A program made the translations under genes and the position numbers. From Dehalococcoidia bacterium (lineage in GTDB: Bacteria > Chloroflexota > Dehalococcoidia > UBA2979): a stretch of 64,000 nucleotides of DNA. The notes beneath the pieces are model-generated. The model did not search any database. It was not told where the DNA came from and was given only the letters and a program-made list of their open reading frames with translations. The stretch lies in assembly GCA_965262725.1 (NCBI GenBank), contig OZ253555.1, positions 2,208,001 to 2,272,000 on the forward strand, given 5' to 3'. Shown in pieces: positions 3,118 to 51,376 of the stretch; positions within the stretch are counted from its first letter, which is position 1, and the number at the start of each line of letters is the position of its first letter.

Positions 3118-3771
3118 TCAGTAGAGGTGTGGCTGGACGTAGGAGGCGATCGAGAGCTCCAGGTCGAGGATGACCTGGGACATCGCCTGGCTGATGAGGT
3201 CGAGCTTCCGCACCTGCTCGATGCGCGCGGAGACGTTCTCCAACTCCTGCCGGGAGAGTAGCCGGTCGAAGATCCCGCACGCATGGGCCAGGGCAATGAT
3301 CACGACGTCCCGTGGATCCGGGATCGCGTCGCTGAACAGCACCTCCATGATGCGCAGCTTGACCTCGCGCTCGGCCTCGCCCTGGAGCAACGGATAGCGC
3401 CTCGACCGGAAGACCCAGAGGAAGCGCTCCTCGCGCTCCTCCAGGATCCCGTGGTCCACCAGCCGGACGAGCGCCTCCTGGCGGACCTCGTCGGCGCGGT
3501 TCGCCGTGCGCTGCACCCAGAAGCGGGCGTCGCCGCCCTCGTGCGATCCGATGTCGGCGAGCGTGGGGTCGAGCAGGCTGTCGCCCAGGGGCGTCGCGTC
3601 CAGAACGATCAGCCGGTCGAGGTCGGTGTCGATCCGGTTCTCGAGCGCTAGATCCATCAGCACGCCGCCGGCGAGCGCGTAGTCCAGGGAGGCGCGGGGG
3701 ACGCGCGCGAAGGTCCCGTCCGTGTCGTCGAGCAACAGCAGGATGATCTCCTCGGCGAATCTGAGTTTGAT
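3118..3771 (-). CDS. GPP34 / GOLPH3-Vps74 family protein
   Basis: (I)KLRFAEEIILLLLDD...ALAGGVLMDLALENRI...LVDHGILEEREERFLWVFRSRRYP resembles bacterial GPP34 proteins. The family-like N-terminus extends upstream of the TTG at 3735 to an ATC at 3771. Confidence 0.8.
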   Translation of the reverse strand: MKLRFAEEIILLLLDDTDGTFARVPRASLDYALAGGVLMDLALENRIDTDLDRLIVLDATPLGDSLLDPTLADIGSHEGGDARFWVQRTANRADEVRQEALVRLVDHGILEEREERFLWVFRSRRYPLLQGEAEREVKLRIMEVLFSDAIPDPRDVVIIALAHACGIFDRLLSRQELENVSARIEQVRKLDLISQAMSQVILDLELSIASYVQPHLY

Positions 3772-3823
3772 CGTCCCCTGCCTTCCACGCTCTCGCCGTT
3801 CGTGCCAACCGTTATGTCGACCG

Positions 3824-3900
3824 TGGTGGGCGATAGTGGATTCGAACCACTGACCTCTGCGATGTCAACGCAGCGCTCTAACCAACTGAGCTAACCGCCC
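3824..3900 (-). tRNA. tRNA-Val(GAC)
   Basis: GGGCGGTTAGCTCAGTTGGTTAGAGCGCTGCGTTGACATCGCAGAGGTCAGTGGTTCGAATCCACTATCGCCCACCA. Confidence 0.96.
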
Positions 3901-4024
3901 ACGCCGACGGCGCGAGCGTAGCACGGGCTTGCTGCGAGCGGTGCAGCCCCGAGCCCGGTCCGGAGCCCCGGCAGCGGCTGCTGCGGGCGGTCCCCGTCAC
4001 CGGAAATGGCGGTACCATGGCGGG

Positions 4025-4100
4025 CCGCGGGACCGCGTCCGGCGGAGCCCTGCGCGGCAGGCGTGGTGGTCCCTCCCGCCAGCGCGCGGGAGTTGTTCTG
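4025..4100 (+). promoter_or_regulatory. Structured leader or attenuator upstream of thrS (degenerate T-box-like)
   Basis: GGTGGTCCC (one mismatch to the T-box GGTGGTACC) is followed by the hairpin CTCCCGC-CAGCGC-GCGGGAG and TTGTTCT. No clear specifier loop. Confidence 0.35.
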
Positions 4101-7615: not shown

Positions 7616-7619
7616 CGCG

Positions 7620-8135
<516 letters not shown>

Positions 8136-8197: not shown

Positions 8198-8266
8198 GCC
8201 GGTTCGCGGCTCAGGTGGCCGCCGGGGTGCTGCGCCTGCAGGGGAGGCGCGAGACGGGAGTCGTCG

Positions 8267-8827
8267 ATCGCCAAAGATCTCCGCATCAATGAGCAAATCC
8301 AGGTACCGCAAGTCCGCTTGATCCGCGGCGACGACCAGATCGGGATCCTGCCCATCAGGGAGGCACTCCAGATCGCAGTCGAGGCGGATCTCGACCTGGT
8401 CGAGGTGGCGCCGACCGCCGACCCGCCCGTCTGCCGGATCATGGACTACGGCCGTTTCAAGTACGAGCAGAGAAAGCGCGAGCGCGAATCCAGGCGCGCC
8501 TCCAAGCACGTCGAGTTGCGCGAAGTACGTATGAAAGTGAAGATCGGGCAGCACGATGTCGACTTCAAGGCGCGCACCGCGTTGAAACTGCTCAACGCCG
8601 GCGACAAGGTGAAGGTCTCGGTGATGTTCCGGGCGCGGGAAATCACGCACCCGGAGATCGGTGAGCAACTCCTCCGGCGCTTCTTCGAGCAGGTGAGCGA
8701 GTACGCGAGCATCGAGCGCCAGCCCACGATGGAGGGGCGCATCATGTCGATGACGCTCGAGGGCGCGCGCAGGCGTCCCGACGAGGCGTCCGCCAAGGAG
8801 TCTGTCGAGGTCGGGGCGGCGACCTAG
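8267..8827 (+). CDS. infC: Translation initiation factor IF-3 (ATC start)
   Basis: ATC-GCC-AAA-GAT-CTC-CGC-ATC-AAT-GAG gives (M)AKDLRINEQI, 6 nt after GGGAG. DLVEVAP...PPVCRIMDYGRFKYE, GDKVKVSVMFRARE. Confidence 0.95.
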   Translation: MAKDLRINEQIQVPQVRLIRGDDQIGILPIREALQIAVEADLDLVEVAPTADPPVCRIMDYGRFKYEQRKRERESRRASKHVELREVRMKVKIGQHDVDFKARTALKLLNAGDKVKVSVMFRAREITHPEIGEQLLRRFFEQVSEYASIERQPTMEGRIMSMTLEGARRRPDEASAKESVEVGAAT

Positions 8828-15903: not shown

Positions 15904-17226
15904 ATGGTCGCCGGCCCGGAACGCGCCGCCACGCCCGCGATGATCTCCGTGGAGGAGGCTCGCGCGCGCATCCTCCACGGGATCGCACCCCTCGAGGCGG
16001 TCGAGGTCCCGCTGCTGGAGGCGCTCGGACAGACGCTGGCCGGAGAGGTGCGCTCCTCCCTGGACATCCCGCCCCTGCCCAACACCGGCATGGACGGCTA
16101 CGCGGTGCGCGCCGTCGACACCGAGGGCGCCACGCCGGCCTCGCCTCGCAAGCTCCGCATCACCGGCTACCTCGCTGCGGGCGGCGTCTATGAGGGGAGC
16201 GTCGGACCCGGCGAGGCGGTGCGGATCATGACCGGCGCGCCCATCCCCGCCGGCGCCGATGCCGTCGTCCCCTTCGAGGAGACCGACGAGCAGGAGCAGA
16301 CCGCGCCCTGGCGGGAGGGCCCGCGCCGCGGCGTCCGCATCGACGTGGAGGCGCGGCCGGGCGCGAACGTGCGGCCGGCCGCGGAGGATGTGCGCGCCGG
16401 CGAGGTCGTGCTGACGTCCGGCACGGTGATCGGGGAGTCGCAGGTGGGCGTGCTCGCCTCGCTCGGGTTGGCGGAGGTGCGTGTCGTGCGCCGGCCGCGC
16501 GTCGCCATCCTCTCCACCGGCGACGAGCTCGTGCGGCCCGGCGAGCCGCTCCGGCCGGGCGCCATCTACGATGCCAACGCGTTCTCGCTCGCCGCGCAGG
16601 TGCTCGCCGCGGGGGGGACGCCCCGGATCCTGGACGTGGCGCGCGACACGACGGAGGCGTTGACCGCGCGCATCCACGAGGGTCTCCGCGACGCCGATCT
16701 CCTCGTCACGTCGGCGGGCGTCTCGCGCGGCGACTTCGACATCGTCAAGGAGGTGCTCGCGCGCGAGGGAGAGATCGGGTTCTGGACGGTCCGGATGCGG
16801 CCCGGGAAGCCCCTCGCCTTCGGGTCGTTCACGGTGAGGGGAGCCGGCGCCGAGCGCCGCGTGCCGCACCTGGGGCTTCCCGGGAACCCCGTCTCCGCGA
16901 TGATGACCTTCGAGCTCTTCGGGCGGGCGGTGCTCTACACGATGCTCGGGCGGGATGACTGGGAGCGCCCGCGTGTGCGCGCGACGGCAGCCGAGCGTAT
17001 TGACAATCCCGACGGCAGGCGCGTCTACGCCCGCGCCGTGATCGCGCGCGACGGGGGAAAGGGGCGCTACGTGGCGCGGCTCACGGGGCCGCAGGGCTCG
17101 GGCGTCCTGACGTCGATGGCGCTCGCCAACGGCTACGCCGTCTGCCCCGAGGACCGCCCCGCGGTCGAGCCCGGGGAGGAGTGCGAGGTGCTGCTGGTCG
17201 GCCCGGTCGAGGGGCCCGCCGACTGA
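15904..17226 (+). CDS. moeA: Molybdopterin molybdenumtransferase
   Basis: PPLPNTGMDGYAVR, RIMTGAPIPAGADAVV, STGDEL, SAGVSRGDFD, MRPGKPL, GLPGNPVS. Confidence 0.95.
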   Translation: MVAGPERAATPAMISVEEARARILHGIAPLEAVEVPLLEALGQTLAGEVRSSLDIPPLPNTGMDGYAVRAVDTEGATPASPRKLRITGYLAAGGVYEGSVGPGEAVRIMTGAPIPAGADAVVPFEETDEQEQTAPWREGPRRGVRIDVEARPGANVRPAAEDVRAGEVVLTSGTVIGESQVGVLASLGLAEVRVVRRPRVAILSTGDELVRPGEPLRPGAIYDANAFSLAAQVLAAGGTPRILDVARDTTEALTARIHEGLRDADLLVTSAGVSRGDFDIVKEVLAREGEIGFWTVRMRPGKPLAFGSFTVRGAGAERRVPHLGLPGNPVSAMMTFELFGRAVLYTMLGRDDWERPRVRATAAERIDNPDGRRVYARAVIARDGGKGRYVARLTGPQGSGVLTSMALANGYAVCPEDRPAVEPGEECEVLLVGPVEGPAD

Positions 17227-17789
17227 GCGCCGCCGCGCGCGCGCCCTCCGGCCCGGCGCTCGTGCTCATCGCCGGCGTCTCCGGCCCCGAGAAGACGCTG
17301 CTCGTCGTCTCCTTGACCGAGGAGCTGCGCCGCCTCGGCCACCGAGTCGGCCGCGCCGAGGCGCGCGGGGACGTGCTCGTGGTGGCGCTCGCGTCGGGCG
17401 GGCGCGTCACCGCCGCGCCGCCGGCCGACCCGCGCGCATGGCCCGACGCGCTCGGCCGCCTCGCGCGGAGCCTCGATCCGCAGCTCGAGCTCCTGCTCGT
17501 CGAGGGCCCGGAGAGGCGCGACACCGACGAACTCCCGGTCGTCGAAGTCGTGGTGCCGCGCGGGGCTTCGACGACGGCCCCCGGGACGCTGCTGGCAGCA
17601 GCATCGGGCGCCGACTCGGCCCGGGATCTCGCGGTGCTCGTCGAGCGGCGCGTGCTCGGAGGCGCGGCCGGGCGCTCGCTCGACGCGGCGGTCGGGCGGC
17701 GACGCGCCCGCCGACCCCTCGGCCGGGCATTGGGCGGGGCGCTACATCGCGCACTCGCGGTGCTCGGCCGCGTGGGGCGGCGTGGCTAG
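17223..17789 (+). CDS. Divergent MobB-like P-loop protein
   Basis: LVLIAGVSGPEKTLLVVSLTEELRRLGHRVG and LLLVEG match the MobB pattern, with an altered Walker A. Probable CTG start overlapping the moeA stop (CTGA). Confidence 0.5.
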   Translation: MSAAARAPSGPALVLIAGVSGPEKTLLVVSLTEELRRLGHRVGRAEARGDVLVVALASGGRVTAAPPADPRAWPDALGRLARSLDPQLELLLVEGPERRDTDELPVVEVVVPRGASTTAPGTLLAAASGADSARDLAVLVERRVLGGAAGRSLDAAVGRRRARRPLGRALGGALHRALAVLGRVGRRG

Positions 17790-29122: not shown

Positions 29123-29313
29123 CGAGCCACCCCCCGCAACACCGGCCCATTGTGGGGGAGAGCCACCGAAGCTGCACACGCGCCGACGCGCCTCCCGGCG
29201 CTCCGGAGTCGCCGGGAGGTGCGCACGATGTAGTATGAGCGGCCGCTCGCGGCGCAGGGAGAACCGCCGCGAGCGAGGCCTCGCGCGAGGCCTCGCGCCG
29301 AGAGGAGACCCCC

Positions 29314-30777
29314 CTGAGCGCCGACGCCGGGGGCGCACCGGGGCCTCCCCGCCCCGGGGGATCCGTCGACGAGTGGAGTGCCGTCGTGCTGGCGGCCGGG
29401 CGCGGGACGCGCATGCGCTCCGCCCGGCCCAAGGTGCTCCACCCGGTGGCCGGCCGCCCGATGGTGCAGCTCGTCTGCGACGCCGCGCAGGACGCCGGGC
29501 TTCAGCGCATCGTCGTCGTGGCATCGCCCGACGCGCGCGATCAGGTGGCCGAAGCGCTGTCCGAAGGCGGCGTAGCCGGCCCGGGCGCAGCCCGGCCGAC
29601 GATCGCCGAGCAGTCCGAGCAGCTCGGGACCGGCCACGCGGCGCTCTGCGCCAGGGAGGTGGCCGCGGGCGCCCGACACGTCCTCATCACCTACGGCGAC
29701 CTCCCCCTGCTGACCGCCCCGACGCTCGCGGAGCTGATGGAGCGCCACCTCTCGACCGGGGCTACCCTGACCTTCCTCACCGCGCGCCTCGACGACCCGA
29801 CCGGCTACGGCCGCGTCATGCGGGCCGGCGGCCGCGTGCGGGGAATCGTCGAGGAGAGCGAGACAGACGAGGCCACGCGCGGGGAGCACGAGGTCAACGC
29901 GGGCCTCTACGCGGCGCGCGCGGACTGGCTGTGGCCGACGCTCGCGGCGCTCACACCGGGGCCGCGCGGCGAGATCTACCTCACCGATCTCGTCGCCCGC
30001 GCGGTGTCGGAGGGGGTGGGCGTCGAAACGTCGGCCCTCGAGGATCCCTCCGAGGCGCAGCAGGTGAACACGCGTGTCGAGCTCGCCTCGGCCGAGCAGG
30101 CGCTCCGCGACCGCGTGAGGCGCCACCTCATGGAGTCGGGCGTCACGCTGGTGGATCCCGCATCGACCTTTGTCGATGTCGGCGTGGAGGTCGAGGCGGA
30201 CTGCACGATCCAGCCCGGCGTGCACCTCTCCGGCGCAACCCGCATCGGCGCGGGCACCGAGATCGGACCCCACGCCGTGCTGCGAGACATGCGAGTCGGT
30301 GAGCGCTGCCGCGTGGAGGGCGCGACGCTGCGCTCCTCGACGCTCGGTGACGAGGTCGAGGTGGGGCCCTACTGCGTCGTACGGCCGGGCTGCGTTCTCG
30401 CTGAGCGCGTGCACCTCGGCAGCTACGCCGAGCTCAAGAATGCGCAGGTCGGCGCTCGCTCGCAGATCGGTCACTTCTCGTACATCGGCGACAGCGTGGT
30501 CGGCTCCGGCGTGAACATCGGAGCCGGCGTCGTCACGGCGAACTACGATGGATCCCGCAAGCAGGTGACGCGGATCGGCGACGGTGCCTTCATCGGTAGC
30601 GACACGACGCTCGTCGCGCCTGTTACCGTCGGGGCCGGCGCGTACACCGGCGCCGGCGCGGTGGTTGTCCGCGACGTAGCGCCGGGTGAACGCGTGGCCG
30701 GCGTTCCGGCGCGCGTGCTGGGACGCCGCAGAAGCGGCGGGCGCGGGAAGCGCCCCGCCGAGGAGGAGGAGGTCTGA
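29314..30777 (+). CDS. glmU: Bifunctional UDP-GlcNAc pyrophosphorylase / glucosamine-1-P acetyltransferase
   Basis: AVVLAAGRGTRMRS..PKVLH, QLGTGHA, YGDLPLL, GEIYLTD, hexapeptide repeats, NIGAGVVTANYDG. Probable CTG start at 29314, 6 nt after AGGAG. Confidence 0.93.
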   Translation: MSADAGGAPGPPRPGGSVDEWSAVVLAAGRGTRMRSARPKVLHPVAGRPMVQLVCDAAQDAGLQRIVVVASPDARDQVAEALSEGGVAGPGAARPTIAEQSEQLGTGHAALCAREVAAGARHVLITYGDLPLLTAPTLAELMERHLSTGATLTFLTARLDDPTGYGRVMRAGGRVRGIVEESETDEATRGEHEVNAGLYAARADWLWPTLAALTPGPRGEIYLTDLVARAVSEGVGVETSALEDPSEAQQVNTRVELASAEQALRDRVRRHLMESGVTLVDPASTFVDVGVEVEADCTIQPGVHLSGATRIGAGTEIGPHAVLRDMRVGERCRVEGATLRSSTLGDEVEVGPYCVVRPGCVLAERVHLGSYAELKNAQVGARSQIGHFSYIGDSVVGSGVNIGAGVVTANYDGSRKQVTRIGDGAFIGSDTTLVAPVTVGAGAYTGAGAVVVRDVAPGERVAGVPARVLGRRRSGGRGKRPAEEEEV

Positions 30778-30816
30778 GGCCGACCGGCGGCTCATCCCGC
30801 CGGGCGGTAACCGGTT

Positions 30817-35188: not shown

Positions 35189-35191
35189 GAC

Positions 35192-35370
35192 CCCGGGACT
35201 ACATCTCCCACGGCTCCACGCTCACACGCAGGACTGGCGCCGTCACACCGAGCAGAGGCGCCCGACCCGCCGGCCGATCGGAGCCGCACCTGCCCTGAGG
35301 GACTGGTTCGAATGCGCCGCGCGCCGCGTGACCTCGTCGGGCACGTGCGGCCGGTGGGCGAGTTCCCGGG
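35192..35370 (+). ncRNA. Putative 6S-RNA-like long hairpin (strand uncertain)
   Basis: 179-nt intergenic rod with nested complementary blocks CCCGGGA/TCCCGGG, CCCAC/GTGGG, CACG/CGTG, an asymmetric internal bubble, then GTCAC/GTGAC and GGCGC/GCGCC. Confidence 0.45.
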
Positions 35371-35527
35371 CGTGAGGCGGGTCTCCCCCGATACGCCGTG
35401 AGCCCCGACCGAGTGGTGCCGCCGCCCGTCGCGCCTGCGAACGGCCGCCCGTCGCACGCTCCCTCCCGGTGCATCGGACGCGGTGATACGCTGGGAGGAG
35501 CGGGGTGGTGCAGGGGTCCTCTCGTCC

Positions 35528-36610: not shown

Positions 36611-36735
36611 ACGCCGGTCGCGCGCAGGCCGCTGGCACGTGCCGCACCCCGACCTCCCCGCGCTGCGGCCGGTAGAATCTGGAGGCTGCCCGGCACCGCG
36701 ACGCGGTGCGGGCCGACGGGAAGAGGTGGAGGCGG

Positions 36736-37200
36736 ATGCGCGTGCTCGTGCTGAACGGACCGAACCTGAACCTGCTCGGCAGTCGCGAGCCGCAGATCTA
36801 CGGCTCGGAGAGCCTCGACGATATCGAGGCCATCCTCCGCGATCGCGCGAATCAGCTCGGCATCGAGATCGACTGCGTGCAGTCCAATCACGAGGGCGCC
36901 CTGATCGACGCCATCCACGAGCACCGGGACTGGGACGGCGTCATCATCAATCCCGGCGCGCTCACCCACACGTCGATCGCGCTCGCCGACGCCCTCTCCG
37001 CGACCGGGCTCGCCGCGATCGAGGTGCATGTCTCCAACGTGCACGCGCGCGAGCGGTTCCGGCGTCACTCCTACATCGCCCCCGTGGCGTGGGGGCAGAT
37101 CACGGGATTCGGCTTCCGGGGCTACCGGGCGGCCCTGCACCTCCTCCACCAGCGGTGGACGGAGATGCAGGAGGAAGGCGAGGCGGAGAGCACCGCGTGA
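36736..37200 (+). CDS. aroQ: Type II 3-dehydroquinate dehydratase
   Basis: LNGPNLNLLGSREPQIYG, QSNHEG, INPGALTHTS, EVHVSNVHARE. Confidence 0.96.
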   Translation: MRVLVLNGPNLNLLGSREPQIYGSESLDDIEAILRDRANQLGIEIDCVQSNHEGALIDAIHEHRDWDGVIINPGALTHTSIALADALSATGLAAIEVHVSNVHARERFRRHSYIAPVAWGQITGFGFRGYRAALHLLHQRWTEMQEEGEAESTA

Positions 37201-38360: not shown

Positions 38361-38920
38361 TCGGGACCGGGGAACTCAAGCGCGGCACCACCGTGGAGAT
38401 CGACGGGTCCCTCTATCAGGTTGTCGACGTCAACCACATCAAGACCAAGAAGTCCGCGGTCTACCGCACCAAGCTCCGCGACCTCCGCGCCGGGCACATC
38501 ATCGAGCGCACGTTCAACGCCAACGAGAAACTCGCTCCCGCGCGCGTCGAGCGCCGGCAAATGCAGTACCTCTACGGCCAGGACGAACTGCACACTTTCA
38601 TGAACACCGAGACCTACGATCAGGTCACCGTCGAGGCGCGCGTGATCGCGGGGGAACTCCCCTACGTGACCGAGGGTGCGATCGTGCAACTGCTGCTCTT
38701 CGGCGACGAGCCGCTCGCGCTCGAGCTCCCGGCCGCCGTCGAGCTCACCATCACCGAGTCCGACCCTGGCGTCAGGGGTGACACGGCGACCGGCGCGACC
38801 AAGCCCGCCACCCTGGAGACGGGGCTCGTGGTCCATGTGCCACTTTTCATCAACCCGGGCGACCGCGTGAAGGTCTCGACCGACGGCGGCCACTACCTCG
38901 AGCGCGTCCAGATCGCCTGA
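38357..38920 (+). CDS. efp: Elongation factor P
   Basis: MQYLY, FMNTETYDQ, PGVRGDTATGATKPATLETG, VPLFI. GTG start overlaps the peptidase stop. Confidence 0.93.
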   Translation: MIGTGELKRGTTVEIDGSLYQVVDVNHIKTKKSAVYRTKLRDLRAGHIIERTFNANEKLAPARVERRQMQYLYGQDELHTFMNTETYDQVTVEARVIAGELPYVTEGAIVQLLLFGDEPLALELPAAVELTITESDPGVRGDTATGATKPATLETGLVVHVPLFINPGDRVKVSTDGGHYLERVQIA

Positions 38921-38999
38921 GGGACGCTGGGCCGCCAGGCGAACGTGATGTGCTGTCGCGACGCCCGCGGAACCGTCCGCCCCTGCGCCGGAGGTTAGC

Positions 39000-40253
39000 G
39001 TGTCCGCGACGCCCGGAGCCCCGCCCCCTCCCCGGGGCAACCCCGAGGCCGTTCCCGTCGCCCGGCTGCTGCACGCGCTCCGCGGCGTGCTGGAGGCGGA
39101 TCAACGCTTCCGGGACGTCTGGGTCTCGGGGGAGGTGCTCAACCTCGTCCACGCGCGGTCGGGCCACATCTACTTCACGCTGACCGAGGGCGGCGCCGCG
39201 CTGCGCTGCGCGTTCTTCCGCAACCGCAACGTCGGGCAGGCCGACCGGCTGAAGGACGGGGCGGCCGTGCTCGCACACGGCTCAGTTTCGCTCTACGAGG
39301 AGCGCGGTGATCTCCAGTTCATCGTCGACTTCGTGCAACCGGCGGGCGCGGGCGCGGCCGCCGCCGAGTTTGAGCGCCGCCGCTCGCGCTTCGAGGCTGA
39401 GGGTCTTTTCGACCCGTCGCGCAAGCGGTCGCTCCCGCGCTTCCCGCGCCGGGTCGCCGTCGTGACGTCGCCGCAGGGCGCGGTCCTCCACGACGTGCGG
39501 ACCGTGCTCGGACGCCGCTGGCCGCTCGCGACGCTCCTCGTGCAGCCGACCTCCGTGCAGGGTGCCGAGGCGGCAGGGGAGATCGCCGCCGCGATCCGCG
39601 CCGCCGCAGAGCCCCGAGGGCGGGACGGCACCAGAATCGCCCCGCCTGAGGTCGTGATCGTCGCGCGTGGCGGGGGCGCCGCGGAGGATCTCTGGGCCTT
39701 CAACGATGAGTCGGTCGTCCGCGCGATCTTCGGATGCCCGGTCCCCGTCGTCTCCGCGGTGGGCCACGAGACCGACGTCACGCTCGCCGACCTCGTCGCT
39801 GATGTGCGTGCCCCGACGCCCTCCGCCGCCGCCGAGCTCGTCGCCCCCGATCGCGACGAGCTCCTGGATCGCGTCGCGCGCGAGCGGGCGAGGCTCGCCA
39901 CGACGCTCCTCGGAGTGCTCGGATTCCATCGCGCGCGCGTCCGCGAGCAGGGAGCGTCGCTTGCACGCGCGCTCCCGGACCGCGACCAGCGCCGCCTTCG
40001 CGTGCGGGCGGTGGCCGATGCGATGGCCCGCCACGTGGAGGCGCGGACCGCCTCCCATCGCGCCGGCGTCGGCCGGTTCGCGGAGCGGATCGCCGCCCTC
40101 TCGCCCCGGGGAACGCTCGGGCGGGGCTATGCGCTCGTCTCGCGCCCGGACGGGAGCGCCGTCGCCGACGCGGCCGACCTCTCCGAGGGAGAGCGCGTGC
40201 TGCTCAGGCTCCGCGACGGCGCCCGCGGCGCGCGTGTAGAGTCTCCTCCGTGA
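39000..40253 (+). CDS. xseA: Exodeoxyribonuclease VII large subunit
   Basis: VWVSGEV, SGHIYFTL, VVTSPQGAV, ARGGGAAEDLWAFNDE, SAVGHETD, APTPSAAAE. Confidence 0.95.
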   Translation: MSATPGAPPPPRGNPEAVPVARLLHALRGVLEADQRFRDVWVSGEVLNLVHARSGHIYFTLTEGGAALRCAFFRNRNVGQADRLKDGAAVLAHGSVSLYEERGDLQFIVDFVQPAGAGAAAAEFERRRSRFEAEGLFDPSRKRSLPRFPRRVAVVTSPQGAVLHDVRTVLGRRWPLATLLVQPTSVQGAEAAGEIAAAIRAAAEPRGRDGTRIAPPEVVIVARGGGAAEDLWAFNDESVVRAIFGCPVPVVSAVGHETDVTLADLVADVRAPTPSAAAELVAPDRDELLDRVARERARLATTLLGVLGFHRARVREQGASLARALPDRDQRRLRVRAVADAMARHVEARTASHRAGVGRFAERIAALSPRGTLGRGYALVSRPDGSAVADAADLSEGERVLLRLRDGARGARVESPP

Positions 40254-40561
40254 GCACCGATGCGCAGGAATCCGCCCCGGCCGCCGAGCACGGCGCGGGG
40301 CCCGACCCGGTTCCGGGCGCTGGCGACGGCGAGCCCTCCTTCGAGGCCCTCTACGAGCGGCTCGATCAGGTCGCCCAGGAACTCGGCGCGGGCGGCCTTT
40401 CTCTCGAGAAGTCGATCGCCCTCTACGAAGAGGGGATGAGACTCGCGGCGAGCTGTGAGCGCCTGCTCGATGGCGTCGAGCAGCGGATCGAGATGCTGCG
40501 CAAGGCCCGGGCGACGGGTGCAGCGGGACCGGGAGAGCCGCCTGGCGGAAGGCTCCTGTGA
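40250..40561 (+). CDS. xseB: Exodeoxyribonuclease VII small subunit
   Basis: SFEALYERL...LSLEKSIALYEEGMRL...EQRI. Confidence 0.92.
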   Translation: MSTDAQESAPAAEHGAGPDPVPGAGDGEPSFEALYERLDQVAQELGAGGLSLEKSIALYEEGMRLAASCERLLDGVEQRIEMLRKARATGAAGPGEPPGGRLL

Positions 40562-40568
40562 GGCGCGC

Positions 40569-41354
40569 GTGACCCTGCGCATCGGCTGGTTCACCACAGG
40601 GCGCGGAGAGGGATCGCGCGGTTTCTACCGCGCCACACGCGACGCGATCGGAGCCGGCGCGCTCTCGGCCGAGATTGCGGTGCTCTTCTGCAACCGCGAC
40701 CCCGGCGAGGTGCCGGCGACCGACGCGCTGCTTGAGGAGGTGCGTGCCGACGGCGTGCCGGTCGTGACGCGTTCCTCGGTGGCGTTCCGCCGGGCGCGCT
40801 GCGGCGAGCGCTCGCGCCCCGGCGAGCCACTCCCGGCCTGGCGCGCCGAGTACGACCGCGCCGTCCACGAGGCGCTGGCGGCGTACCCGTTCGAGGTCGG
40901 CGTGCTCGCCGGCTACATGCTGATCCTCACCGCGGAGTTCGTGGAGCAGCATGTGCTGCTCAACTTCCACCCCGCGCTTCCCACAGGCCCGATCGGCACC
41001 TGGCGCGAGGTGATCCGCGCGCTGATCCGCAGCCGCGCGACGGCGAGCGGCGTGATGATGCACCTCGTCATCCCGGAGGTCGACGCCGGTGCCGTCGCGA
41101 CCTTCTGCCGCTACACGCTGCGCGACGCGGGGCTCGATCCGCTGTGGCGGGAGCTCGAGCCCTCGATCGACGGGGCGACCGACCAGGAGCTGGAGGAGAG
41201 CCCGCTCTTCGGCGCGATTCGGGAGCGCGGCCTCAGGCACGAGGCGCCGCTCCTCGTCGCCACCCTGGGCGCCGTCGCCGACGGCCGCCTCCGCCTCGCG
41301 GGCGGGCGCCTGGAGGGCGCGCCGCTGGAGATCCCCGTGCCGACCCTCCCGTAG
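40569..41354 (+). CDS. PurN-like formyltransferase
   Basis: VLAGYMLIL, LLNFHPALP and HLVIPEVDAG carry the Asn/His/Asp formyltransferase triad. Confidence 0.8.
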   Translation: MTLRIGWFTTGRGEGSRGFYRATRDAIGAGALSAEIAVLFCNRDPGEVPATDALLEEVRADGVPVVTRSSVAFRRARCGERSRPGEPLPAWRAEYDRAVHEALAAYPFEVGVLAGYMLILTAEFVEQHVLLNFHPALPTGPIGTWREVIRALIRSRATASGVMMHLVIPEVDAGAVATFCRYTLRDAGLDPLWRELEPSIDGATDQELEESPLFGAIRERGLRHEAPLLVATLGAVADGRLRLAGGRLEGAPLEIPVPTLP

Positions 41355-41432
41355 GCCGGCGCGGCCCGGCGTCGGGCGCGATTGGGTACGCTGTCGCGAG
41401 GTCGCCCCTGCGGCTGATGAAGGGATCGTACC

Positions 41433-41753
41433 GTGAGCGAGCATCGACCCGTCCCCGCCGCGGCCCGCTTCGGGCGCGCGCTGGCGGCCCTGCCCGCGCG
41501 GGCGCCGGCGGGACGCCGCCGGCGGGCCCTCGCGCGCGCTTGGTGCAGGACCGCGCCGGCCGTCCAGGGCGCGCTCGCCGCCGTCGCTCTGACGCTTGCG
41601 GCCGAGCGCGTGCTGCGCGCTGCGGGGAGTGTCGTGCTCTCGGTTGTCTCCACCGCTCCGCGCGCGCGGCCGGCGGGCAGCCCCGGCACGAGCCGCCGTT
41701 CGCGCACGGTCGTCACCGAGATCACCATCCTCGAGCGGCGCGTCCGTCGATGA
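41433..41753 (+). CDS. Hypothetical protein
   Basis: Fills the gap between purN-like and rluB; has a hydrophobic central stretch and a C-terminal TVVTEITILERRVRR. Confidence 0.45.
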   Translation: MSEHRPVPAAARFGRALAALPARAPAGRRRRALARAWCRTAPAVQGALAAVALTLAAERVLRAAGSVVLSVVSTAPRARPAGSPGTSRRSRTVVTEITILERRVRR

Positions 41754-41820
41754 CCGGCCCGTGACCCGCAGGCGCTCTCCTCCCCCCGTCCCGCCCGCCG
41801 ACCCAGGCGGACGGGGCCCG

Positions 41821-42612
41821 GTGACCGCGGAGCCGCCACCGCAGGCGCCGGTCGACGGCGGGGCGCTCCGGGGCGAGCGCCTGCAGAAGGTCCTCGCCTC
41901 GCGCGGCGTCGCGAGTCGCCGGGCTGCTGAAGTCCTGATCGCGGCGGGACGCGTCACCGTCGACGGCCGCGTCGCGCGCCTCGGCGAGCGGGTCGACGCC
42001 GCGCGCCAGAGCGTCGCGGTCGATGGGCGGGCGATCGCCCGGGCGGCCCCGCCGCCTCGCACCCTGATGCTGAACAAGCCGCCCGGTGTCCTGGTCAGCA
42101 GGCGCGATGAGCATGGGCGGCGCACGGTCTACGATCTCCTGCCGGGGGCACCCCCCGGCCTGCGTTACGCCGGACGCCTCGATCGCGATAGTGAGGGGCT
42201 GCTCCTCCTCACAACGGACGGCAGGCTCGCCTTCCGCCTCGCGCACCCGCGCTACGGCGTCGAGAAGGTCTACGAGGTCACGGTCGACGGCGAGCCGTCA
42301 CCCGCCGCGCTCCAGGCGCTCCGGCGCGGCGTCCTGATCGAGGACGGACCGAGCGCGCCCGCCGGGGCGCGCCTCCTGGGTCGCCCGCGGGGCCCGGAGG
42401 GGCCGCGCCGCTCCCGCGTGCGGCTCGTGCTCCACGAGGGGCGGAAGCGCCAGGTCCGCCGCATGCTCCAGGCGGTCGGCCACCCCGTGAGGCGGCTCGT
42501 GCGCACGCGCGTCGGATCACTTGAGCTCGGAACGCTCCCGCCGGGCGCCGCGAGAGAGCTGACAGACGCCGAGCTCGGGGAGCTCTACGCGCTGGTCGGG
42601 CTCGCCCGCTGA
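41821..42612 (+). CDS. rluB: RsuA/RluB-family pseudouridine synthase
   Basis: S4 domain ERLQKVLASRGVASRRAAE, LNKPPG, GRLDRDSEGLLLLT, EGRKRQVRRM. Start may be 41761. Confidence 0.88.
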   Translation: MTAEPPPQAPVDGGALRGERLQKVLASRGVASRRAAEVLIAAGRVTVDGRVARLGERVDAARQSVAVDGRAIARAAPPPRTLMLNKPPGVLVSRRDEHGRRTVYDLLPGAPPGLRYAGRLDRDSEGLLLLTTDGRLAFRLAHPRYGVEKVYEVTVDGEPSPAALQALRRGVLIEDGPSAPAGARLLGRPRGPEGPRRSRVRLVLHEGRKRQVRRMLQAVGHPVRRLVRTRVGSLELGTLPPGAARELTDAELGELYALVGLAR

Positions 42613-42715
42613 GCGCGCCGGCGCGCCGGCAGCGGCTCTCCTTTGTGGACGGCCCGGCTCAGCCGCCCATATCATCGAACGCCCTGGCGAGAGTGCCCAT
42701 CGATGGGAGCGTTCT

Positions 42716-43459
42716 ATTCCGCCTGATCTCGGCGCGACCGAGTCCCTCAGGAGAAGCATCGCGATCGACGGTCCGCTCGCCTCCGGCAAGAGCGTGGTTG
42801 GGCGCGCCCTCGCCGAGGTTCTCGGTATCGGCTTCTTCGACACCGGGCTGATGTACCGCGCCTGCACGCTCGCCGTCGGCCGCGCCGGCGTCGACGCGGA
42901 GGCGGAGGGCGCCGTCGTCGAGCTCGTGTGCGCGCTTGATCTGGACATGCGGTGGCCCGATCCGGCCACGCCCGAGCTCCTGCTCGCGGGCGAGAACGTC
43001 ACGCCGCTGTTGCGGGATCCGGAGGTCGAGACCGCGGTTTCGCTGGTCTCGCGCATCCCCGACGTGCGAGACGAGATGGTAAAGCGCCAGCGGGCATTCG
43101 CGGCGCGCGCGCCGGTCGTGATGGCGGGCCGGGACATCGGCGCCCGCGTCCTCCGCGAGGCGCGGGCGAAGTTCTTCCTCGATGCATCGACCGAGGTGCG
43201 CGCGCGGCGGCGCCGCGGCGAGGAGCGTGAGGCGGGGCGCGCCAGCTCCTTCGAGGATGTCCTCTCACAGACGAGGCGACGGGACGAGCTCGACCAGACC
43301 GGGCAGCGCACGATTCGCCGCGAGCAGGTGGCGCCCGACGTGCTCATCATCGACACCGACGCGCTTGGCATCGACCAGGTCGTCGCGAGCTGCGTCCACG
43401 CCTACCGCGAGGCGAATGGCGAGGGCGCGGCCGGCCCGAGGCGGGCGGCGACGCAGTGA
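42716..43459 (+). CDS. cmk: Cytidylate kinase
   Basis: The P-loop SIAIDGPLASGKS lies upstream of the first canonical start (42794). FDTGLMYRA, MAGRDIG, RDELD. Probable ATT start at 42716 (or ATC 42758). Confidence 0.9.
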   Translation: MPPDLGATESLRRSIAIDGPLASGKSVVGRALAEVLGIGFFDTGLMYRACTLAVGRAGVDAEAEGAVVELVCALDLDMRWPDPATPELLLAGENVTPLLRDPEVETAVSLVSRIPDVRDEMVKRQRAFAARAPVVMAGRDIGARVLREARAKFFLDASTEVRARRRRGEEREAGRASSFEDVLSQTRRRDELDQTGQRTIRREQVAPDVLIIDTDALGIDQVVASCVHAYREANGEGAAGPRRAATQ

Positions 43460-44265
43460 GCAGTCCGTTCCATGCCCTCCTGCCCCGCATCGCGGCGGGC
43501 CGGCTCTCGCGCTGGGCCTTCCTCGTGGCGACGCTGCTCACGCGCGCGCTCTTCGGTGCCCTCGCCCGCGTCGACGTCCGGCACGGAGAGCGCGTACCGG
43601 ATGAGGGCCCGGTCGTGCTGATCGCCAATCACGTCAACCAGAGCGACCCTCTCATCCTGCTGGCCTACGCGCCGCGGCGGGCGCGTCCCCTGGCGAAGCG
43701 CGAGCTCTTCGAGTTGCCGCTCGTCGGGTGGTACTTCTGGCTCTACGGGGCGATCCCGGTGCGCCGCTACGCCGCCGACATGGGCGCCCTGCGCGCGGCC
43801 AGCGGCTACCTGAGGCGGGGCGAGGCCGTGCTCGTCTTCCCGGAGGGGACGCGTTCCCGCGACGGGCGGCTGCGCCCGGCCTTCCCCGGCGCCGCGACGG
43901 TGGCGCTGCTCTCGGGCGCGCCGCTGCTGCCGGTCGCGGTGAGCGGGACCCGCGGGCTCTCGGCCCGTGGGCTCCTCACCGGCTGGCTGCGCCGCCGGCG
44001 CCCGGAGATCCGCATCGAGTTCGGAGAGCCGCTCGACCCGCGCGCCGCGGCGCGCGCGGCGGCCGACGGCTCCGCAACCATCAAGTCCGGGGCCGTCGCG
44101 GAGGCGACCGACCGCGTCATGCGCGCCCTCGCCTCGCTTCTCGCCGAGGAGGCGCGCGGCGCCTACGCGGAACCCCGCAATGGCGGCGGGCCCGTCATCG
44201 CCCGCTCGCCCCAGCCGCAGCGGGAGAGCTCAGACGTTCCCGGCGGCTCTCCGAGCGGCGGATAG
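43456..44265 (+). CDS. plsC: 1-acyl-sn-glycerol-3-phosphate acyltransferase family
   Basis: NHVNQSD (HX4D), FPEGTRS. Confidence 0.85.
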   Translation: MSSPFHALLPRIAAGRLSRWAFLVATLLTRALFGALARVDVRHGERVPDEGPVVLIANHVNQSDPLILLAYAPRRARPLAKRELFELPLVGWYFWLYGAIPVRRYAADMGALRAASGYLRRGEAVLVFPEGTRSRDGRLRPAFPGAATVALLSGAPLLPVAVSGTRGLSARGLLTGWLRRRRPEIRIEFGEPLDPRAAARAAADGSATIKSGAVAEATDRVMRALASLLAEEARGAYAEPRNGGGPVIARSPQPQRESSDVPGGSPSGG

Positions 44266-48907: not shown

Positions 48908-49091
48908 CGGTCACCCTCCCGCACCGGCGCCCCGGGGGAGTGACGGGGAAGCGTGCGACGCGCGGGAGGGCCCGCGTGGCCGCGCCGTGCGACACCAAGT
49001 ATACGGGGCACCCGGCCTACCCGCCCGCTACGCGGAGCTCCCACCCGAGGGCGGCTTGCCGCGCGCACCGCCGCTGCGCACACTCGTCGCG

Positions 49092-50201
49092 ATGGCAGCG
49101 CAGCGAGCCGGCCGGGCGGGGGTCTCCGTCGAGACGCGTGTGCGGGCGTCGCTCGAGGCGCGCGAGGCAGCGCTCGCCCCGGGCGCCGCCCGGGAGGCGA
49201 CCTCGCGCGGGCGGGAGCGGCCGGAGCCGCCGTCGGCGCTGCGAGTCGCCTACCAGCTCGACCGCGACCGCATCATCCACACGCGCGCCTTTCGTCGTCT
49301 CACGCACAAGACCCAGGTCTTCATCGCCCCCGACTCCGACCACGTCGTGACCCGCATGACGCACACGATCGAGGTCCAGCAGATCGCACGGACGATCGCT
49401 CGCGCGCTCGGGCTCAACGAGGACCTCGCCGAGGCGATTGCGCTCGGGCACGACCTCGGGCACACGCCCTTCGGGCACGCGGGGGAGGAAATGCTCGCCT
49501 CGCTGCTGCCCGAGGGCTTCCGTCACAATGAGCAATCTCTGCGCATCGTCGACCGCCTTGAGAACGCCGGCCGCGGCCTGAACCTCTCGGCGGAGACCCG
49601 CGAGGGGATCCTCATGCACTCCAAGGTGCGCGAGTCGGTGGCGGCCGAGGCGTGGGGCACCGCCGCCACGCTCGAGGGCCAGATCGTGAAGCTGGCCGAC
49701 TCCATCGCGTACTTGAACCACGACATCGAGGACGCGATCCGAGCCGGACTGATCACGCCCAGCGAGCTCCCCGATCGGGCCGTGGCGACCCTGGGCGAGA
49801 CGCGATCGCACCGCCTCGATCGCCTCGTGCGCGACTGCGTCGCGAACTCGTGGGAGGCAGCGCAGGACCCGCCCGGTGGGGAGGGGCCGGCGGGCCGCAT
49901 CACCCTCTCCGAGGAGGCGCTCGAGGCCACCGACACGCTGCGCGACTTCATGTTCGAGCGGGTCTATCTCGTCGACGGCCAGCTTGATCGGGCGCAGCGC
50001 GGCCAGCGGGTCCTGGAGGCGCTCTTCCGACACTACGAGGTCCACCCGCGCGAGATTCCCGGATACGCCTTGCCCGCCGACCCGCCGAGGCGGCGCGCCG
50101 CCGACTACGTCTCGGGGATGACGGACGGCTATGCGATCAGGCGGGCCCACGATCTCGGACTCGAATCGGCGGCTGACTGGCGCGTGACAGAGCGCGCGTA
50201 G
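49092..50201 (+). CDS. dgt: Deoxyguanosinetriphosphate triphosphohydrolase-like HD protein
   Basis: DRDRIIHTRAFRRLTHKTQVF, TRMTHTIEV, GHDLGHTPFGHAGE, DYVSGMTD. Confidence 0.92.
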   Translation: MAAQRAGRAGVSVETRVRASLEAREAALAPGAAREATSRGRERPEPPSALRVAYQLDRDRIIHTRAFRRLTHKTQVFIAPDSDHVVTRMTHTIEVQQIARTIARALGLNEDLAEAIALGHDLGHTPFGHAGEEMLASLLPEGFRHNEQSLRIVDRLENAGRGLNLSAETREGILMHSKVRESVAAEAWGTAATLEGQIVKLADSIAYLNHDIEDAIRAGLITPSELPDRAVATLGETRSHRLDRLVRDCVANSWEAAQDPPGGEGPAGRITLSEEALEATDTLRDFMFERVYLVDGQLDRAQRGQRVLEALFRHYEVHPREIPGYALPADPPRRRAADYVSGMTDGYAIRRAHDLGLESAADWRVTERA

Positions 50202-50614
50202 GAGCTATTCCGTCGCCGGGAGGAGCAAGTGCCGGCGCCTCCTCCGACGGTCCTCGCGAAGTGCCGGTGCCCGCTTCGAATGCTGAATCCGACTGACACG
50301 CCGGGGACGACCCCGCAGATGTCACGGACGTGGTCCACACCCGACAGCCGCGTCCGCCGCCACGAACACCGCCATCACGCACAGGACGAGCCCGTTCCCG
50401 ATGATCCGCCCCGGCGTCCCGCGCGCCATGCTCCACCGGATCCCCAGCCTCAGCCGCGGTCGGGTCTCGGCACCCGTGCGGCCGCGTTCGCTCCTCTGCG
50501 GCCCGCGCCGCCCGCCCGCGTCCGTGACCGCTACAATCAAGGTGAAGGGGGCGGGGGCCCGAGAGGTAACCGACCACGCGACGCACCGTTCGAACGCCCA
50601 CGCTCGCCGGCATC

Positions 50615-51376
50615 ATGGTCGTGCTTGTCGCCGCCCTGACGCTTGCGGCGCTCGCGATCCTGGGTACGGAGGAGGAGCCACCGGTGGCCATCTCCGGCGC
50701 CGGAGCGGGTCAGGCGAGCGCGACGCCGGAAGCACGGACCCCTCGCGCGGCGGCGCACGTCACGACCAACCTCCGCCAGTCGCCTCACCCCGCCGCCGAC
50801 GTGGTGGCGGTAATCCCGGGGGGTCGCGAGGCGGAACTCCTGGGCCGGAGTGCAGACGGTGCGTGGGCGCAGCTCGCCTACCCTCCGGGCGGGGTCGAGG
50901 GGTGGGCTCCCCTCGCCTCGTTCGCGATCGCGGAGCGGGACATCGCCTCCGCGCCGGTGCGGGCCTCCGAGTCGGGATCGACGCAGCCTCCCGCCGCGGA
51001 GCGCACGCCGGCCGCCGGAACTCCGGGGCCGGACGCGCTCCCCGACCTCGCCGTCGTGAATGCTTTCCTGCTTCCCGACGGCCGGCTGACGGTCTCGGTG
51101 CGCAACGGCGGCGACGCCCCGCTCGAGCAGCAGCGGATCTCGCTGCGGGTCTCGAGCGCCGAGGGGGAGATCCTCGGGGTCCTGGAGATCGGTCCCACCT
51201 CGCTCGCTCCCGGCGCCGTGGCGACCGCGATCACGCCGGTCACCGTGCGCCGCACCGGCGTCTACATCCTCGAGCTCGATCGCCTCGACGCGATCGCCGA
51301 GTCGAGCGAGTTCAACAATCACTTCAGCCAGCTCTTCGTCGCTCCCGCCGCGCCGCAGGGGAACGGCGGCGGATGA
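50615..51376 (+). CDS. Exported protein with bacterial SH3-like and CARDB-like domains
   Basis: Hydrophobic N-terminus; NLRQSP...LLGRSADGAWAQL...VEGW (SH3-like); LPDLAV...VRNGG...IAESSEFNN (CARDB-like). The true start may be ACG 50576. TACAAT at 50532. Confidence 0.7.
   Translation: MVVLVAALTLAALAILGTEEEPPVAISGAGAGQASATPEARTPRAAAHVTTNLRQSPHPAADVVAVIPGGREAELLGRSADGAWAQLAYPPGGVEGWAPLASFAIAERDIASAPVRASESGSTQPPAAERTPAAGTPGPDALPDLAVVNAFLLPDGRLTVSVRNGGDAPLEQQRISLRVSSAEGEILGVLEIGPTSLAPGAVATAITPVTVRRTGVYILELDRLDAIAESSEFNNHFSQLFVAPAAPQGNGGG

What the first reader, a model, noticed from the sequence alone, without database searches (positions are those of the whole stretch)
3118..50620. Repeated near-cognate start codons in core genes, well beyond infC
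Seen in sequence: several genes have conserved N-terminal residues upstream of any in-frame ATG/GTG/TTG, and a near-cognate codon sits behind an SD. infC (ATC 8267), cmk (ATT 42716) and glmU (CTG 29314) each lie exactly 6 nt after GGGAG/AGGAG. Without these starts, Cmk loses its P-loop and GlmU most of its first beta-strand. Weaker cases are GPP34 (ATC 3771), mobB-like (CTG 17223, CTGA overlap) and the SH3/CARDB gene (ACG 50576, which would supply a basic signal-peptide n-region). Established: non-AUG starts on infC provide IF3 autoregulation. Inference: this lineage may have relaxed start-codon discrimination or an IF3-responsive set of genes. Its IF3 has FRARE in place of the usual FRGRE in the C-terminal domain.
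Basis: partly seen in the sequence, partly recalled or inferred. Interest (0 to 1): 0.7.

Follow-up and report, generated by a model that had tools for sequence, protein, structure and literature searches.

The report
Conserved non-AUG starts in core genes
Several housekeeping genes of this uncultured Chloroflexota bacterium really do begin at weak start codons (AUC, AUU, CUG, probably ACG) that related species have kept, a known but rare kind of translation start that gene callers get wrong.

Summary
infC (ATC 8267), cmk (ATT 42716), GPP34 (ATC 3771) and glmU (CTG 29314) have conserved protein sequence upstream of every in-frame ATG/GTG/TTG. The same near-cognate codon sits behind a Shine-Dalgarno motif in the other species of the genus. 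Independent assemblies from four studies show no frame-changing indel at glmU or cmk. The SH3/CARDB gene (ACG 50576) gains support: its ATG is not conserved and the 13-codon extension changes mostly synonymously. The mobB-like CTG 17223 is not supported; canonical GTG 17262 fits better.

A genome-wide census anchored on Pfam domains found more cases: typA and a phosphoribosyltransferase (ATC), and cysS, cobT and four others (CTG). That gives about 13 solid cases among 2862 predicted genes (about 0.5%, a lower bound). This is well above annotated norms, but it is not wholesale relaxation. A test for Shine-Dalgarno motifs before near-cognate codons shows no large excess.

IF3 carries FRARE in 19 of 19 genomes of the family and FRGRE in 11 of 11 from the other families of the class. 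The change lies in the published RFRGR start-codon motif. A causal link is untested, because the one comparator genome was full of frameshifts.

The parts
8256..8269 (+). infC Shine-Dalgarno GGGAG (8256-8260), 6-nt spacer, ATC start (8267-8269)
   Evidence: One search gives the sequence. The first in-frame canonical codon, TTG 8318, lies inside the conserved VRLIRGD. The IF3_N domain starts 11 residues upstream of it. An Ile codon stands at this position in 30 of 30 relatives with a match; the codon was read in 29: 19 ATC, 9 ATA, 1 ATT.
8267..8827 (+). infC (IF3) coding region
   Evidence: Pfam IF3_N and IF3_C.
8627..8641 (+). IF3 motif FRARE; the Ala codon is 8633-8635, equivalent to G132 of E. 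coli 129-RFRGR-133
   Evidence: FRARE in 19 of 19 family genomes and FRGRE-type in 11 of 11 from other families of the class. G at this position in 79 of 82 diverse IF3. Motif function from PMC11775629.
42705..42718 (+). cmk Shine-Dalgarno GGGAG (42705-42709), 6-nt spacer, ATT start (42716-42718)
   Evidence: ATT in 4 and ATC in 1 of 5 genus members, each 6-7 nt after GGAG. Ten of 17 family orthologues have no canonical start within 30 codons of the P-loop. No indel in contigs from 4 studies.
42716..43459 (+). cmk (cytidylate kinase); P-loop GPLASGKS lies upstream of the first canonical GTG 42794
   Evidence: Pfam Cytidylate_kin starts 12 residues before GTG 42794. The public gene call P0001 is truncated.
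29303..29316 (+). glmU Shine-Dalgarno AGGAG (29303-29307), 6-nt spacer, CTG start (29314-29316)
   Evidence: GAGAGGAGAC...CTG is identical in G000 and G001, and near-identical in G003. Other genera have ATG 15-30 codons before the same beta-strand. No difference in 4 runs before 29925.
29314..30777 (+). glmU coding region; internal GTG 29386 sits inside AVVLAAGRGTRM
   Evidence: Pfam NTP_transf_3, NTP_transferase.
3118..3771 (-). GPP34-family gene starting at ATC 3771-3769
   Evidence: Pfam GPP34 starts 7 residues upstream of the first canonical TTG 3735. ATC in 4 of 4 genus members. ATG at the same or adjacent position in G023, G008 and G009.
50561..51376 (+). SH3/CARDB-like secreted protein: GAGAGG 50561-50566, in-frame TAA 50567-50569, ACG 50576-50578 as probable start, ATG 50615 as the first canonical codon
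   Evidence: The stop and ACG are conserved in 4 of 4 genus members. The ATG is replaced by CTG or CTC in the other three. Six of 9 variable codons in the extension are synonymous. SH3_3 and CARDB hits are weak and below the gathering score.
17181..17789 (+). mobB-like ORF after moeA: in-frame GTG 17181, CTG 17223 (CTGA overlap with the moeA stop), GTG 17262 as the likely real start
   Evidence: The stretch after CTG 17223 is not conserved. GTG 17262 aligns with the likely start of the G004 orthologue. No Pfam hit at E 0.01.

Best explanation
This genome is an uncultured Chloroflexota; sources name its relatives' Cmk proteins Dehalococcoidia or Chloroflexota. It carries a small, evolutionarily stable set of genes that start at near-cognate codons. 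In the window these are infC (AUC), cmk (AUU), GPP34 (AUC), glmU (CUG) and probably the SH3/CARDB gene (ACG). Elsewhere they include typA and a phosphoribosyltransferase (AUC), and cysS, cobT, an MFS transporter, a GGACT-family enzyme, a luciferase-like oxidoreductase and a DnaG-like gene (CUG).

Each sits 6-9 nt behind a GGAG-type Shine-Dalgarno motif. The likely mechanism is the ordinary one. The motif places the 30S subunit, fMet-tRNA pairs with two of the three bases, and IF3 disfavours the complex. The gene is then translated weakly and in inverse relation to IF3 activity. This is established for infC in E. coli and for the GTC start of sigR in Streptomyces.

Shown here: the reading frames, the conserved codons and motifs, and the absence of assembly error. 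Inferred: that initiation occurs at exactly these codons, and that it depends on IF3.
For: - **Frames.** Pfam domains begin 7-50 residues upstream of the first in-frame ATG/GTG/TTG.
- **cmk.** The Ile codon is kept in 5 of 5 genus members (ATT x4, ATC x1). ATC or ATT sits behind GGAG(G) in at least six further genera.
- **cysS.** CTG-CTG lies 7 nt after GGAG in 5 of 5 genus members, with an in-frame stop 6 codons upstream in G000 and G004. CTG stands at the homologous position in most other family genera, and GTG stands there in G017 and G013.
- **typA.** ATC lies 6-7 nt after GGAG in G000, G003, G014 and G009.
- **GPP34.** ATC in 4 of 4 genus members, with ATG at the same place in three other genera.
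- **glmU.** CTG in 3 of 4 genus members.
- **SH3/CARDB.** See the parts list.
- **Assembly.** Contigs of 4 runs from 4 studies show no frame-changing indel at glmU or cmk.
- **Public annotation.** An NCBI record for a family member already begins Cmk at the Ile codon (P0023).
- **Precedents.** D. deserti dnaA ATC and rpsL CTG (PMC2830850, abstract and passages). Streptomyces sigR GTC repressed by IF3 (PMC5472188, abstract and section 10).
Against: No protein N-terminus or ribosome-profiling data exist for this organism, and no run on record as RNA was listed.

My choice among near-cognate codons within a gene used the presence of a Shine-Dalgarno motif. About 11% of all codons have such a motif by chance, so the exact start is firm only where relatives were examined.

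Seven of the genome-wide cases (cobT, GGACT, MFS, DnaG-like, luciferase-like, PRTase, APH) were not checked in relatives.

The genome does contain at least one split core gene, mreB. Isolated frameshifts therefore cannot be excluded for those unchecked cases.
Confidence: 0.78

Rival explanations
1. Lineage-level relaxed start-codon discrimination. The family-wide IF3 G-to-A change in the RFRGR motif weakens rejection of non-AUG codons, so near-cognate starts accumulate and persist in this family more than elsewhere.
For: FRARE in 19 of 19 family genomes against FRGRE-type in 11 of 11 from other families. G at this position in 79 of 82 diverse IF3. PMC11775629 (passages) reports that the motif lies close to the start codon, that swapping it relaxes AUG/GUG discrimination, and that R131P promotes non-AUG starts. 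cmk lacks a nearby canonical start in 10 of 17 family genomes against 1 of 10 outside. About 0.5% of genes here, against about 0.05% annotated in model genomes (81.8 + 13.8 + 4.35% canonical; 10.1101/063800, passages).
Against: Gly to Ala is conservative, and R131 and R133 are retained. The initiator tRNA keeps its three G-C pairs. The uS9 TKR tail is class-wide (29 of 30 genomes), not specific to the family. There is no large genome-wide excess of Shine-Dalgarno motifs before near-cognate codons: ATC 81 of 650, CTG 125 of 989, ATT 9 of 122, against 11.3% overall. The gene sample is biased because the genes were chosen for being non-canonical in G000. Related genomes are not independent. The comparator G024 was uninformative. 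Long-term retention of the same codon looks like selection rather than laxity.
Confidence: 0.15
2. Assembly or sequencing indels hide canonical starts that lie in another frame.
For: The genome is a single contig with a split mreB and split transposases. An out-of-frame ATG at 42703 lies just upstream of the cmk ATT.
Against: Contigs from 4 studies agree with the window at glmU. At cmk they differ only by a 3-nt in-frame insertion upstream of the start and by substitutions. Separately assembled genomes of the genus carry the same codons. ATG 42703 is ATC in the four other genus members.
Confidence: 0.03
3. The proteins start at the downstream canonical codons, and the upstream conservation reflects 5' UTR elements.
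For: GTG 29386 in glmU has its own GGAG 7 nt upstream in G000. ATG 50615 exists in G000. The promoter-like CTACAAT upstream of the SH3/CARDB gene is also conserved.
Against: Cmk and TypA would lose their P-loop or G1 motif. CysS would lose the conserved N-terminal strand. The GGAG before glmU's GTG comes from Trp-Ser codons and is absent in G001 and G003. ATG 50615 is absent in the 3 relatives. Changes in the extensions are mostly synonymous.
Confidence: 0.04

Closest known systems
infC AUU/AUC/AUA start with IF3 autoregulation (E. coli and most bacteria)
   Same: The window's infC starts at ATC behind GGGAG. An Ile codon stands there in 30 of 30 relatives with a match. The other genes share the same architecture of a strong Shine-Dalgarno motif plus a near-cognate codon.
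   Different: Here the architecture extends to cmk, cysS, typA, glmU and others. IF3 dependence is not tested for any of them.
Deinococcus deserti non-canonical starts (dnaA ATC, rpsL CTG, Deide_03051 CTG, infC ATA; PMC2830850, abstract and passages read)
   Same: A high-GC bacterium with a handful of conserved ATC or CTG starts in core genes. They were found because conserved N-termini lie upstream of canonical codons.
   Different: Different genes and a different phylum. Those starts have peptide evidence and these have none. No IF3 variant was reported there in the passages I read.
Streptomyces sigR GTC start repressed by IF3 (PMC5472188, abstract and section 10 read)
   Same: A regulatory use of a very weak start codon outside infC, with IF3 setting the expression level.
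   Different: One gene, with genetic proof. Here there are many genes, only comparative evidence, and no known regulatory logic.
Mycoplasma co-evolved initiation machinery (IF3 R131 to P/F/Y, uS9 SKR to TKR, initiator tRNA without three G-C pairs), as summarised in PMC11775629 (passage read; the primary paper was not read)
   Same: A natural change inside the IF3 RFRGR motif together with a uS9 TKR tail.
   Different: R131 is retained and the neighbouring G132 is changed instead. The initiator tRNA is canonical. TKR is class-wide and does not track FRARE.

Membership tests
Near-cognate (IF3-discriminated) bacterial start codon, infC type | Conserved coding sequence extends upstream of every in-frame ATG/GTG/TTG | tested here: met
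   Pfam domain starts lie 7-50 residues upstream of the first canonical codon for cmk, infC, GPP34, typA, cysS, cobT and others. For glmU the margin is only 2 residues, supported by orthologue N-extensions.
Near-cognate (IF3-discriminated) bacterial start codon, infC type | The same near-cognate codon is conserved at the homologous position in related genomes, or replaced there by a canonical start | tested here: met
   cmk, cysS, typA, GPP34, glmU, SH3/CARDB and infC. Not tested for cobT, MFS, GGACT, luciferase-like, PRTase, DnaG-like or APH.
Near-cognate (IF3-discriminated) bacterial start codon, infC type | Shine-Dalgarno motif at functional spacing | tested here: met
   GGAG-type motif 6-9 nt upstream in G000 and relatives. 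The genome's canonical starts show GGAG peaking at a 5-8 nt spacer. Within a single gene the choice of codon was guided by this motif.
Near-cognate (IF3-discriminated) bacterial start codon, infC type | Protein N-terminus maps to that codon and is initiated with fMet | not testable with these tools
   No proteomic or ribosome-profiling data; no run on record as RNA was listed.
Near-cognate (IF3-discriminated) bacterial start codon, infC type | Translation responds inversely to IF3 level or fidelity | not testable with these tools
   Needs a reporter or genetic experiment.
Lineage with relaxed initiation fidelity (mycoplasma type) | IF3 R131 replaced | tested here: not met
   The motif reads MFRARE. 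The Arg equivalent to R131 is kept and only G132 is changed, to A.
Lineage with relaxed initiation fidelity (mycoplasma type) | Initiator tRNA lacks the three G-C pairs of the anticodon stem | tested here: not met
   The tRNA-fMet at G000 1560810-1560884 has three consecutive G-C pairs and a 1:72 mismatch.
Lineage with relaxed initiation fidelity (mycoplasma type) | uS9 C-terminal SKR replaced by TKR | tested here: met
   uS9 ends in TKR. So do 29 of 30 genomes of the class, including those with FRGRE, so this does not discriminate.
Lineage with relaxed initiation fidelity (mycoplasma type) | Genome-wide rise in non-AUG/GUG/UUG starts compared with relatives that have standard IF3 | tested here: inconclusive
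   G000 has about 13 solid cases among 2862 predicted genes. For comparator G024 I sampled 1.2 Mb. It gave 31 domain-upstream cases, of which I judge 25 to be split genes or the programmed prfB shift: 21 by internal profile position and 4 on inspection. No case other than infC had a Shine-Dalgarno motif before a near-cognate codon.

The most novel reading that the evidence does not exclude
The Gly-to-Ala change fixed in the IF3 RFRGR motif of this Chloroflexota family lowers discrimination against AUC, AUU, CUG and ACG. That would have allowed about 1% of genes, including cmk, cysS, typA and glmU, to move to near-cognate starts and stay there. It would create a family-specific set of genes whose translation tracks IF3 activity.
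Probability: 0.15. Interest if true: 0.75.

Novelty: new member of a known kind. Interest (0 to 1): 0.5.

Why it matters
**Annotation.** Automatic gene callers truncate or over-extend these genes. The public call for this genome's cmk lacks its P-loop. Metabolic reconstructions of this uncultured lineage may therefore mis-score core functions.

**Biology.** Near-cognate starts kept across genera in cmk, cysS and typA suggest tuned low expression or coupling to IF3 in genes not previously known for it.

**Open question.** A rare, family-wide substitution lies inside the IF3 motif that contacts the start codon. It offers a natural variant for testing how that motif sets start-codon stringency.

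Tried and rejected
**Coding-potential start estimate.** I compared a codon-usage estimate of where coding begins with the first canonical codon. In 170 of 2862 genes the estimate lay at least 10 codons upstream. I rejected this as evidence: for genes with ATG plus a strong Shine-Dalgarno motif it overshoots by at least 10 codons in 60 of 606. I used it only as a pre-filter.

**Motif-before-codon tally.** No clear enrichment, so I use it as a bound on scale, not as support.

**Walker-A screen.** Two of 64 genes, cmk and typA; nothing new.

**CTGA-overlap census.** Nearly all cases are CTG followed directly by ATG (TGATG overlaps). Only cobT stands out, so CTGA coupling is not a recurrent theme.

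**Comparator genome G024.** Most of its cases were gene splits, so no rate could be derived.

**Other candidates.** Fic, GAF and APH have domains upstream of the first canonical start but no convincing near-cognate codon with a motif. I left them unresolved. An Aldedh hit with an implied N-terminus beyond an in-frame stop was discarded.

**Searches that gave nothing.**
- No RNA holder was listed among sequencing runs.
- A literature search for 'non-canonical start codons' with 'Chloroflexi' found 0 papers in the held library.

**A corrected recollection.** I recalled that infC362 is R131P. PMC7145577 (passages) gives infC362 as Y75N.
Full report
**What the window is.** The window is G000:C1:2208001-2272000 of a single-contig genome of 3.67 Mb with 70.6% G+C. 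The closest named IF3 record is an uncultured Chloroflexi MAG at 88% identity. Sources name the Cmk homologues Dehalococcoidia or Chloroflexota. The 30 relatives used below are G001-G004 (same genus), G005-G018 (same family, f1) and G019-G030 (other families of the class).

**The observation, case by case**

- **infC.** The frame is open from 8195. The first canonical codon, TTG 8318, lies inside conserved sequence. ATC 8267 follows GGGAG by 6 nt. All 30 relatives with a match have an Ile codon at this position. The codon was read in 29 of them: 19 ATC, 9 ATA and 1 ATT. This is the ordinary, well-known case.

- **cmk.**
  - The Cytidylate_kin domain begins 12 residues upstream of the first canonical GTG 42794, and ATT 42716 follows GGGAG by 6 nt.
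  - The five genus members carry ATT (4) or ATC (1) there, each 6-7 nt behind GGAG. Six further genera carry ATC or ATT behind GGAG(G).
  - Ten of 17 family orthologues have no canonical start within 30 codons of the P-loop, against 1 of 10 outside the family. That one is the error-prone G024.
  - In G010 the Shine-Dalgarno motif lies between an upstream ATG and the ATC, which favours the ATC there too.

- **glmU.**
  - CTG 29314 follows AGGAG by 6 nt. The stretch GAGAGGAGAC...CTG is kept in G000, G001 and G003, while G004 has GTG about 20 codons before the first strand.
  - Other family genera have ATG 15-30 codons upstream of the same strand, so an N-terminal extension is normal for this orthologue.
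  - The GGAG before internal GTG 29386 arises from Trp-Ser codons and is missing in G001 and G003.

- **GPP34.** ATC is present in 4 of 4 genus members at I-KLRFAEE. G023, G008 and G009 have ATG at the same or the adjacent codon.

- **SH3/CARDB.**
  - All four genus members keep an in-frame stop, then ACG two codons later. G000's ATG 50615 reads CTG, CTC and CTC in the others.
  - Of the 12 codons between ACG and that site, 9 vary, and 6 of those 9 vary only synonymously.
  - The extension supplies the basic residues of a signal-peptide n-region. This is moderate support for an ACG start.

- **mobB-like.**
  - In-frame GTG codons lie at 17181 and 17262. The peptide after CTG 17223 is not conserved: it is shorter in G003 and unrelated in G004.
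  - GTG 17262 aligns with the second codon of a CTG-CTG pair in G004. That orthologue has an intact GPPGSGKT and no canonical start. G000 therefore most likely uses GTG 17262.
  - Pfam gives no hit for this ORF at E 0.01.

**Not an artefact.** Contigs of four runs from four studies were laid on 29000-43500. At glmU they span 29000 to about 31780 with 0-3 differences and no gaps; the first difference is at 29925. At cmk the variant strains carry a 3-nt in-frame insertion behind 42675 and substitutions between 42681 and 42799. None touches the motif or the ATT. Several of the substitutions are synonymous in the proposed frame upstream of GTG 42794.

**How common is it in this genome?**

I built a simple codon-usage gene finder, which predicted 2862 genes. 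For each gene I asked whether a Pfam domain starts upstream of the first canonical in-frame start.

- *Evenly spaced sample.* I took 20 tiles of 20 kb, holding 296 predicted genes. Of these, 168 were informative and 139 had a Pfam hit. Three showed a domain starting upstream: typA (21 residues; ccGGAGacgATCATC) and two split genes, mreB and a transposase.
- *The window.* It gave 3 clear cases plus glmU among 29 genes with a Pfam hit.
- *Pre-filtered candidates.* A further 182 genes were screened, of which 120 had a Pfam hit. They added:
  - cobT: CTG overlapping the upstream stop.
  - A GGACT-family gene, an MFS transporter, a DnaG-like gene, a luciferase-like gene and cysS: all CTG, 6-8 nt after a GGAG-type motif.
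  - A phosphoribosyltransferase: ATC, 7 nt after GGAGG.
  - Unresolved: APH, Fic and GAF.
- *Follow-up in relatives.* cysS keeps CTG-CTG 7 nt after GGAG in 5 of 5 genus members, with an in-frame stop 6 codons upstream in G000 and G004. CTG stands at the homologous position in most family genera, and GTG stands there in two. typA has ATC in four genomes of three genera and ATG in most others.

In all there are about 13 solid cases (5 Ile codons, 7 CTG, 1 ACG), or about 0.5% of predicted genes. This is a lower bound, because the screen sees only genes whose N-terminal domain is in Pfam.

For scale, a survey of model genomes lists 81.8% ATG, 13.8% GTG and 4.35% TTG among annotated starts. It states that only infC and pcnB are confirmed non-canonical starts in E. 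coli (10.1101/063800, passages).

Against a large-scale phenomenon, the share of codons preceded by GGAG or GAGG is 12.5% for ATC (81 of 650), 12.6% for CTG (125 of 989) and 7.4% for ATT (9 of 122). The overall share is 11.3%.

The window holds 3 of the 14 screen hits in 1.7% of the genome. That is more than expected. However, the window came to me because of this feature, so I do not read anything into the clustering.

**IF3 and the rest of the machinery**

- FRARE (8627-8641) occurs in 19 of 19 family genomes. The 11 genomes from other families have FRGRE-type motifs.
- Among 82 diverse IF3 sequences the position is G in 79. One of the three exceptions is a same-genus relative.
- PMC11775629 (passages) describes 129-RFRGR-133 as lying close to the start codon. 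It reports that replacing the motif relaxes AUG/GUG discrimination and that R131P promotes non-AUG starts. It also notes that mycoplasmas combine R131 replacements with a uS9 TKR tail and unusual initiator tRNAs.
- Here R131 and R133 are kept. The initiator tRNA has three G-C pairs. The uS9 TKR tail occurs in 29 of 30 genomes of the class regardless of IF3 type.
- To compare rates I sampled 1.2 Mb of G024, which has FRGRE and 69.6% G+C.
  - Of its 31 cases with a domain starting upstream, I judge 25 to be gene splits or the programmed prfB shift. Twenty-one are splits by internal profile position; MetK, GatB, PriA and a P-type ATPase are splits on inspection.
  - Of the remaining six, only infC had a near-cognate codon behind a Shine-Dalgarno motif. 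Three had an out-of-frame ATG just upstream.
  - This hints at a lower rate but does not establish one.

**Interpretation.** The best-supported reading is a small, conserved set of near-cognate starts that work by the ordinary route of a Shine-Dalgarno motif and fMet-tRNA. They are weak by design and possibly sensitive to IF3. Precedents are infC, D. deserti dnaA and rpsL (PMC2830850), and Streptomyces sigR (PMC5472188). Retention of the same codon across genera argues for selection on a weak start, not for mere tolerance of one. The idea that the IF3 variant relaxes discrimination remains an attractive but untested lead.

**Practical consequence.** The public gene call for this cmk starts at GTG 42794 and lacks the P-loop. 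Other calls in the genus are truncated or over-extended. One NCBI record in the family already uses the Ile codon as its start.

Noticed in passing
G000:C1 about 1570249-1571321 (L112:6249-7321, minus strand): mreB is split into two overlapping ORFs. Pfam MreB_Mbl positions 2-120 and 121-325 fall in different frames, so this is either a frameshift in a core gene or a local assembly error.
   Followed up: no
G000:C1:613235-613639 (L311/L312): Ribosomal protein uS9 ends in TKR instead of the usual SKR. So do 29 of 30 genomes of the class; only G023 has SKR. PMC11775629 links TKR to unusual initiation in mycoplasmas.
   Followed up: partly
window 3827-3900 (minus strand): A tRNA gene ends only about 55 nt upstream of the GPP34 ATC start, so this gene's 5' UTR and promoter space is very short, or it is co-transcribed with the tRNA.
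   Followed up: no
L342-L401 (G024:C1:1-1200000): This single-contig relative has many core genes split mid-domain (rpoC, gidA, topA, metK, gatB, priA, methylmalonyl-CoA mutase and others). This is typical of uncorrected indel errors, so it is unsuitable for start-site or pseudogene statistics.
   Followed up: partly
G000:C1:766623-767294 and 3572927-3573583: There are two CysRS paralogues of about 43% identity. Only the first has the CTG start. The relatives also carry both copies.
   Followed up: no
window 50521-50566: A CTACAAT box (-10-like) followed by a G-rich leader and GAGAGG is conserved upstream of the SH3/CARDB gene in all four genus members. It is a likely promoter with a short 5' UTR.
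   Followed up: no
G004:C5:49770-50010 (L436): The mobB-like orthologue of G004 has an intact Walker A (GPPGSGKT) but no in-frame ATG/GTG/TTG between the moeA stop and the P-loop. A CTG-CTG pair 9 nt after GGGGAG is its likely start. The G000 and G003 copies have degenerate P-loops.
   Followed up: partly
window 42703-42726: A 7-codon out-of-frame ATG mini-ORF overlaps the cmk ATT start in G000. Its ATG reads ATC in the four other genus members, so it is not conserved.
   Followed up: yes
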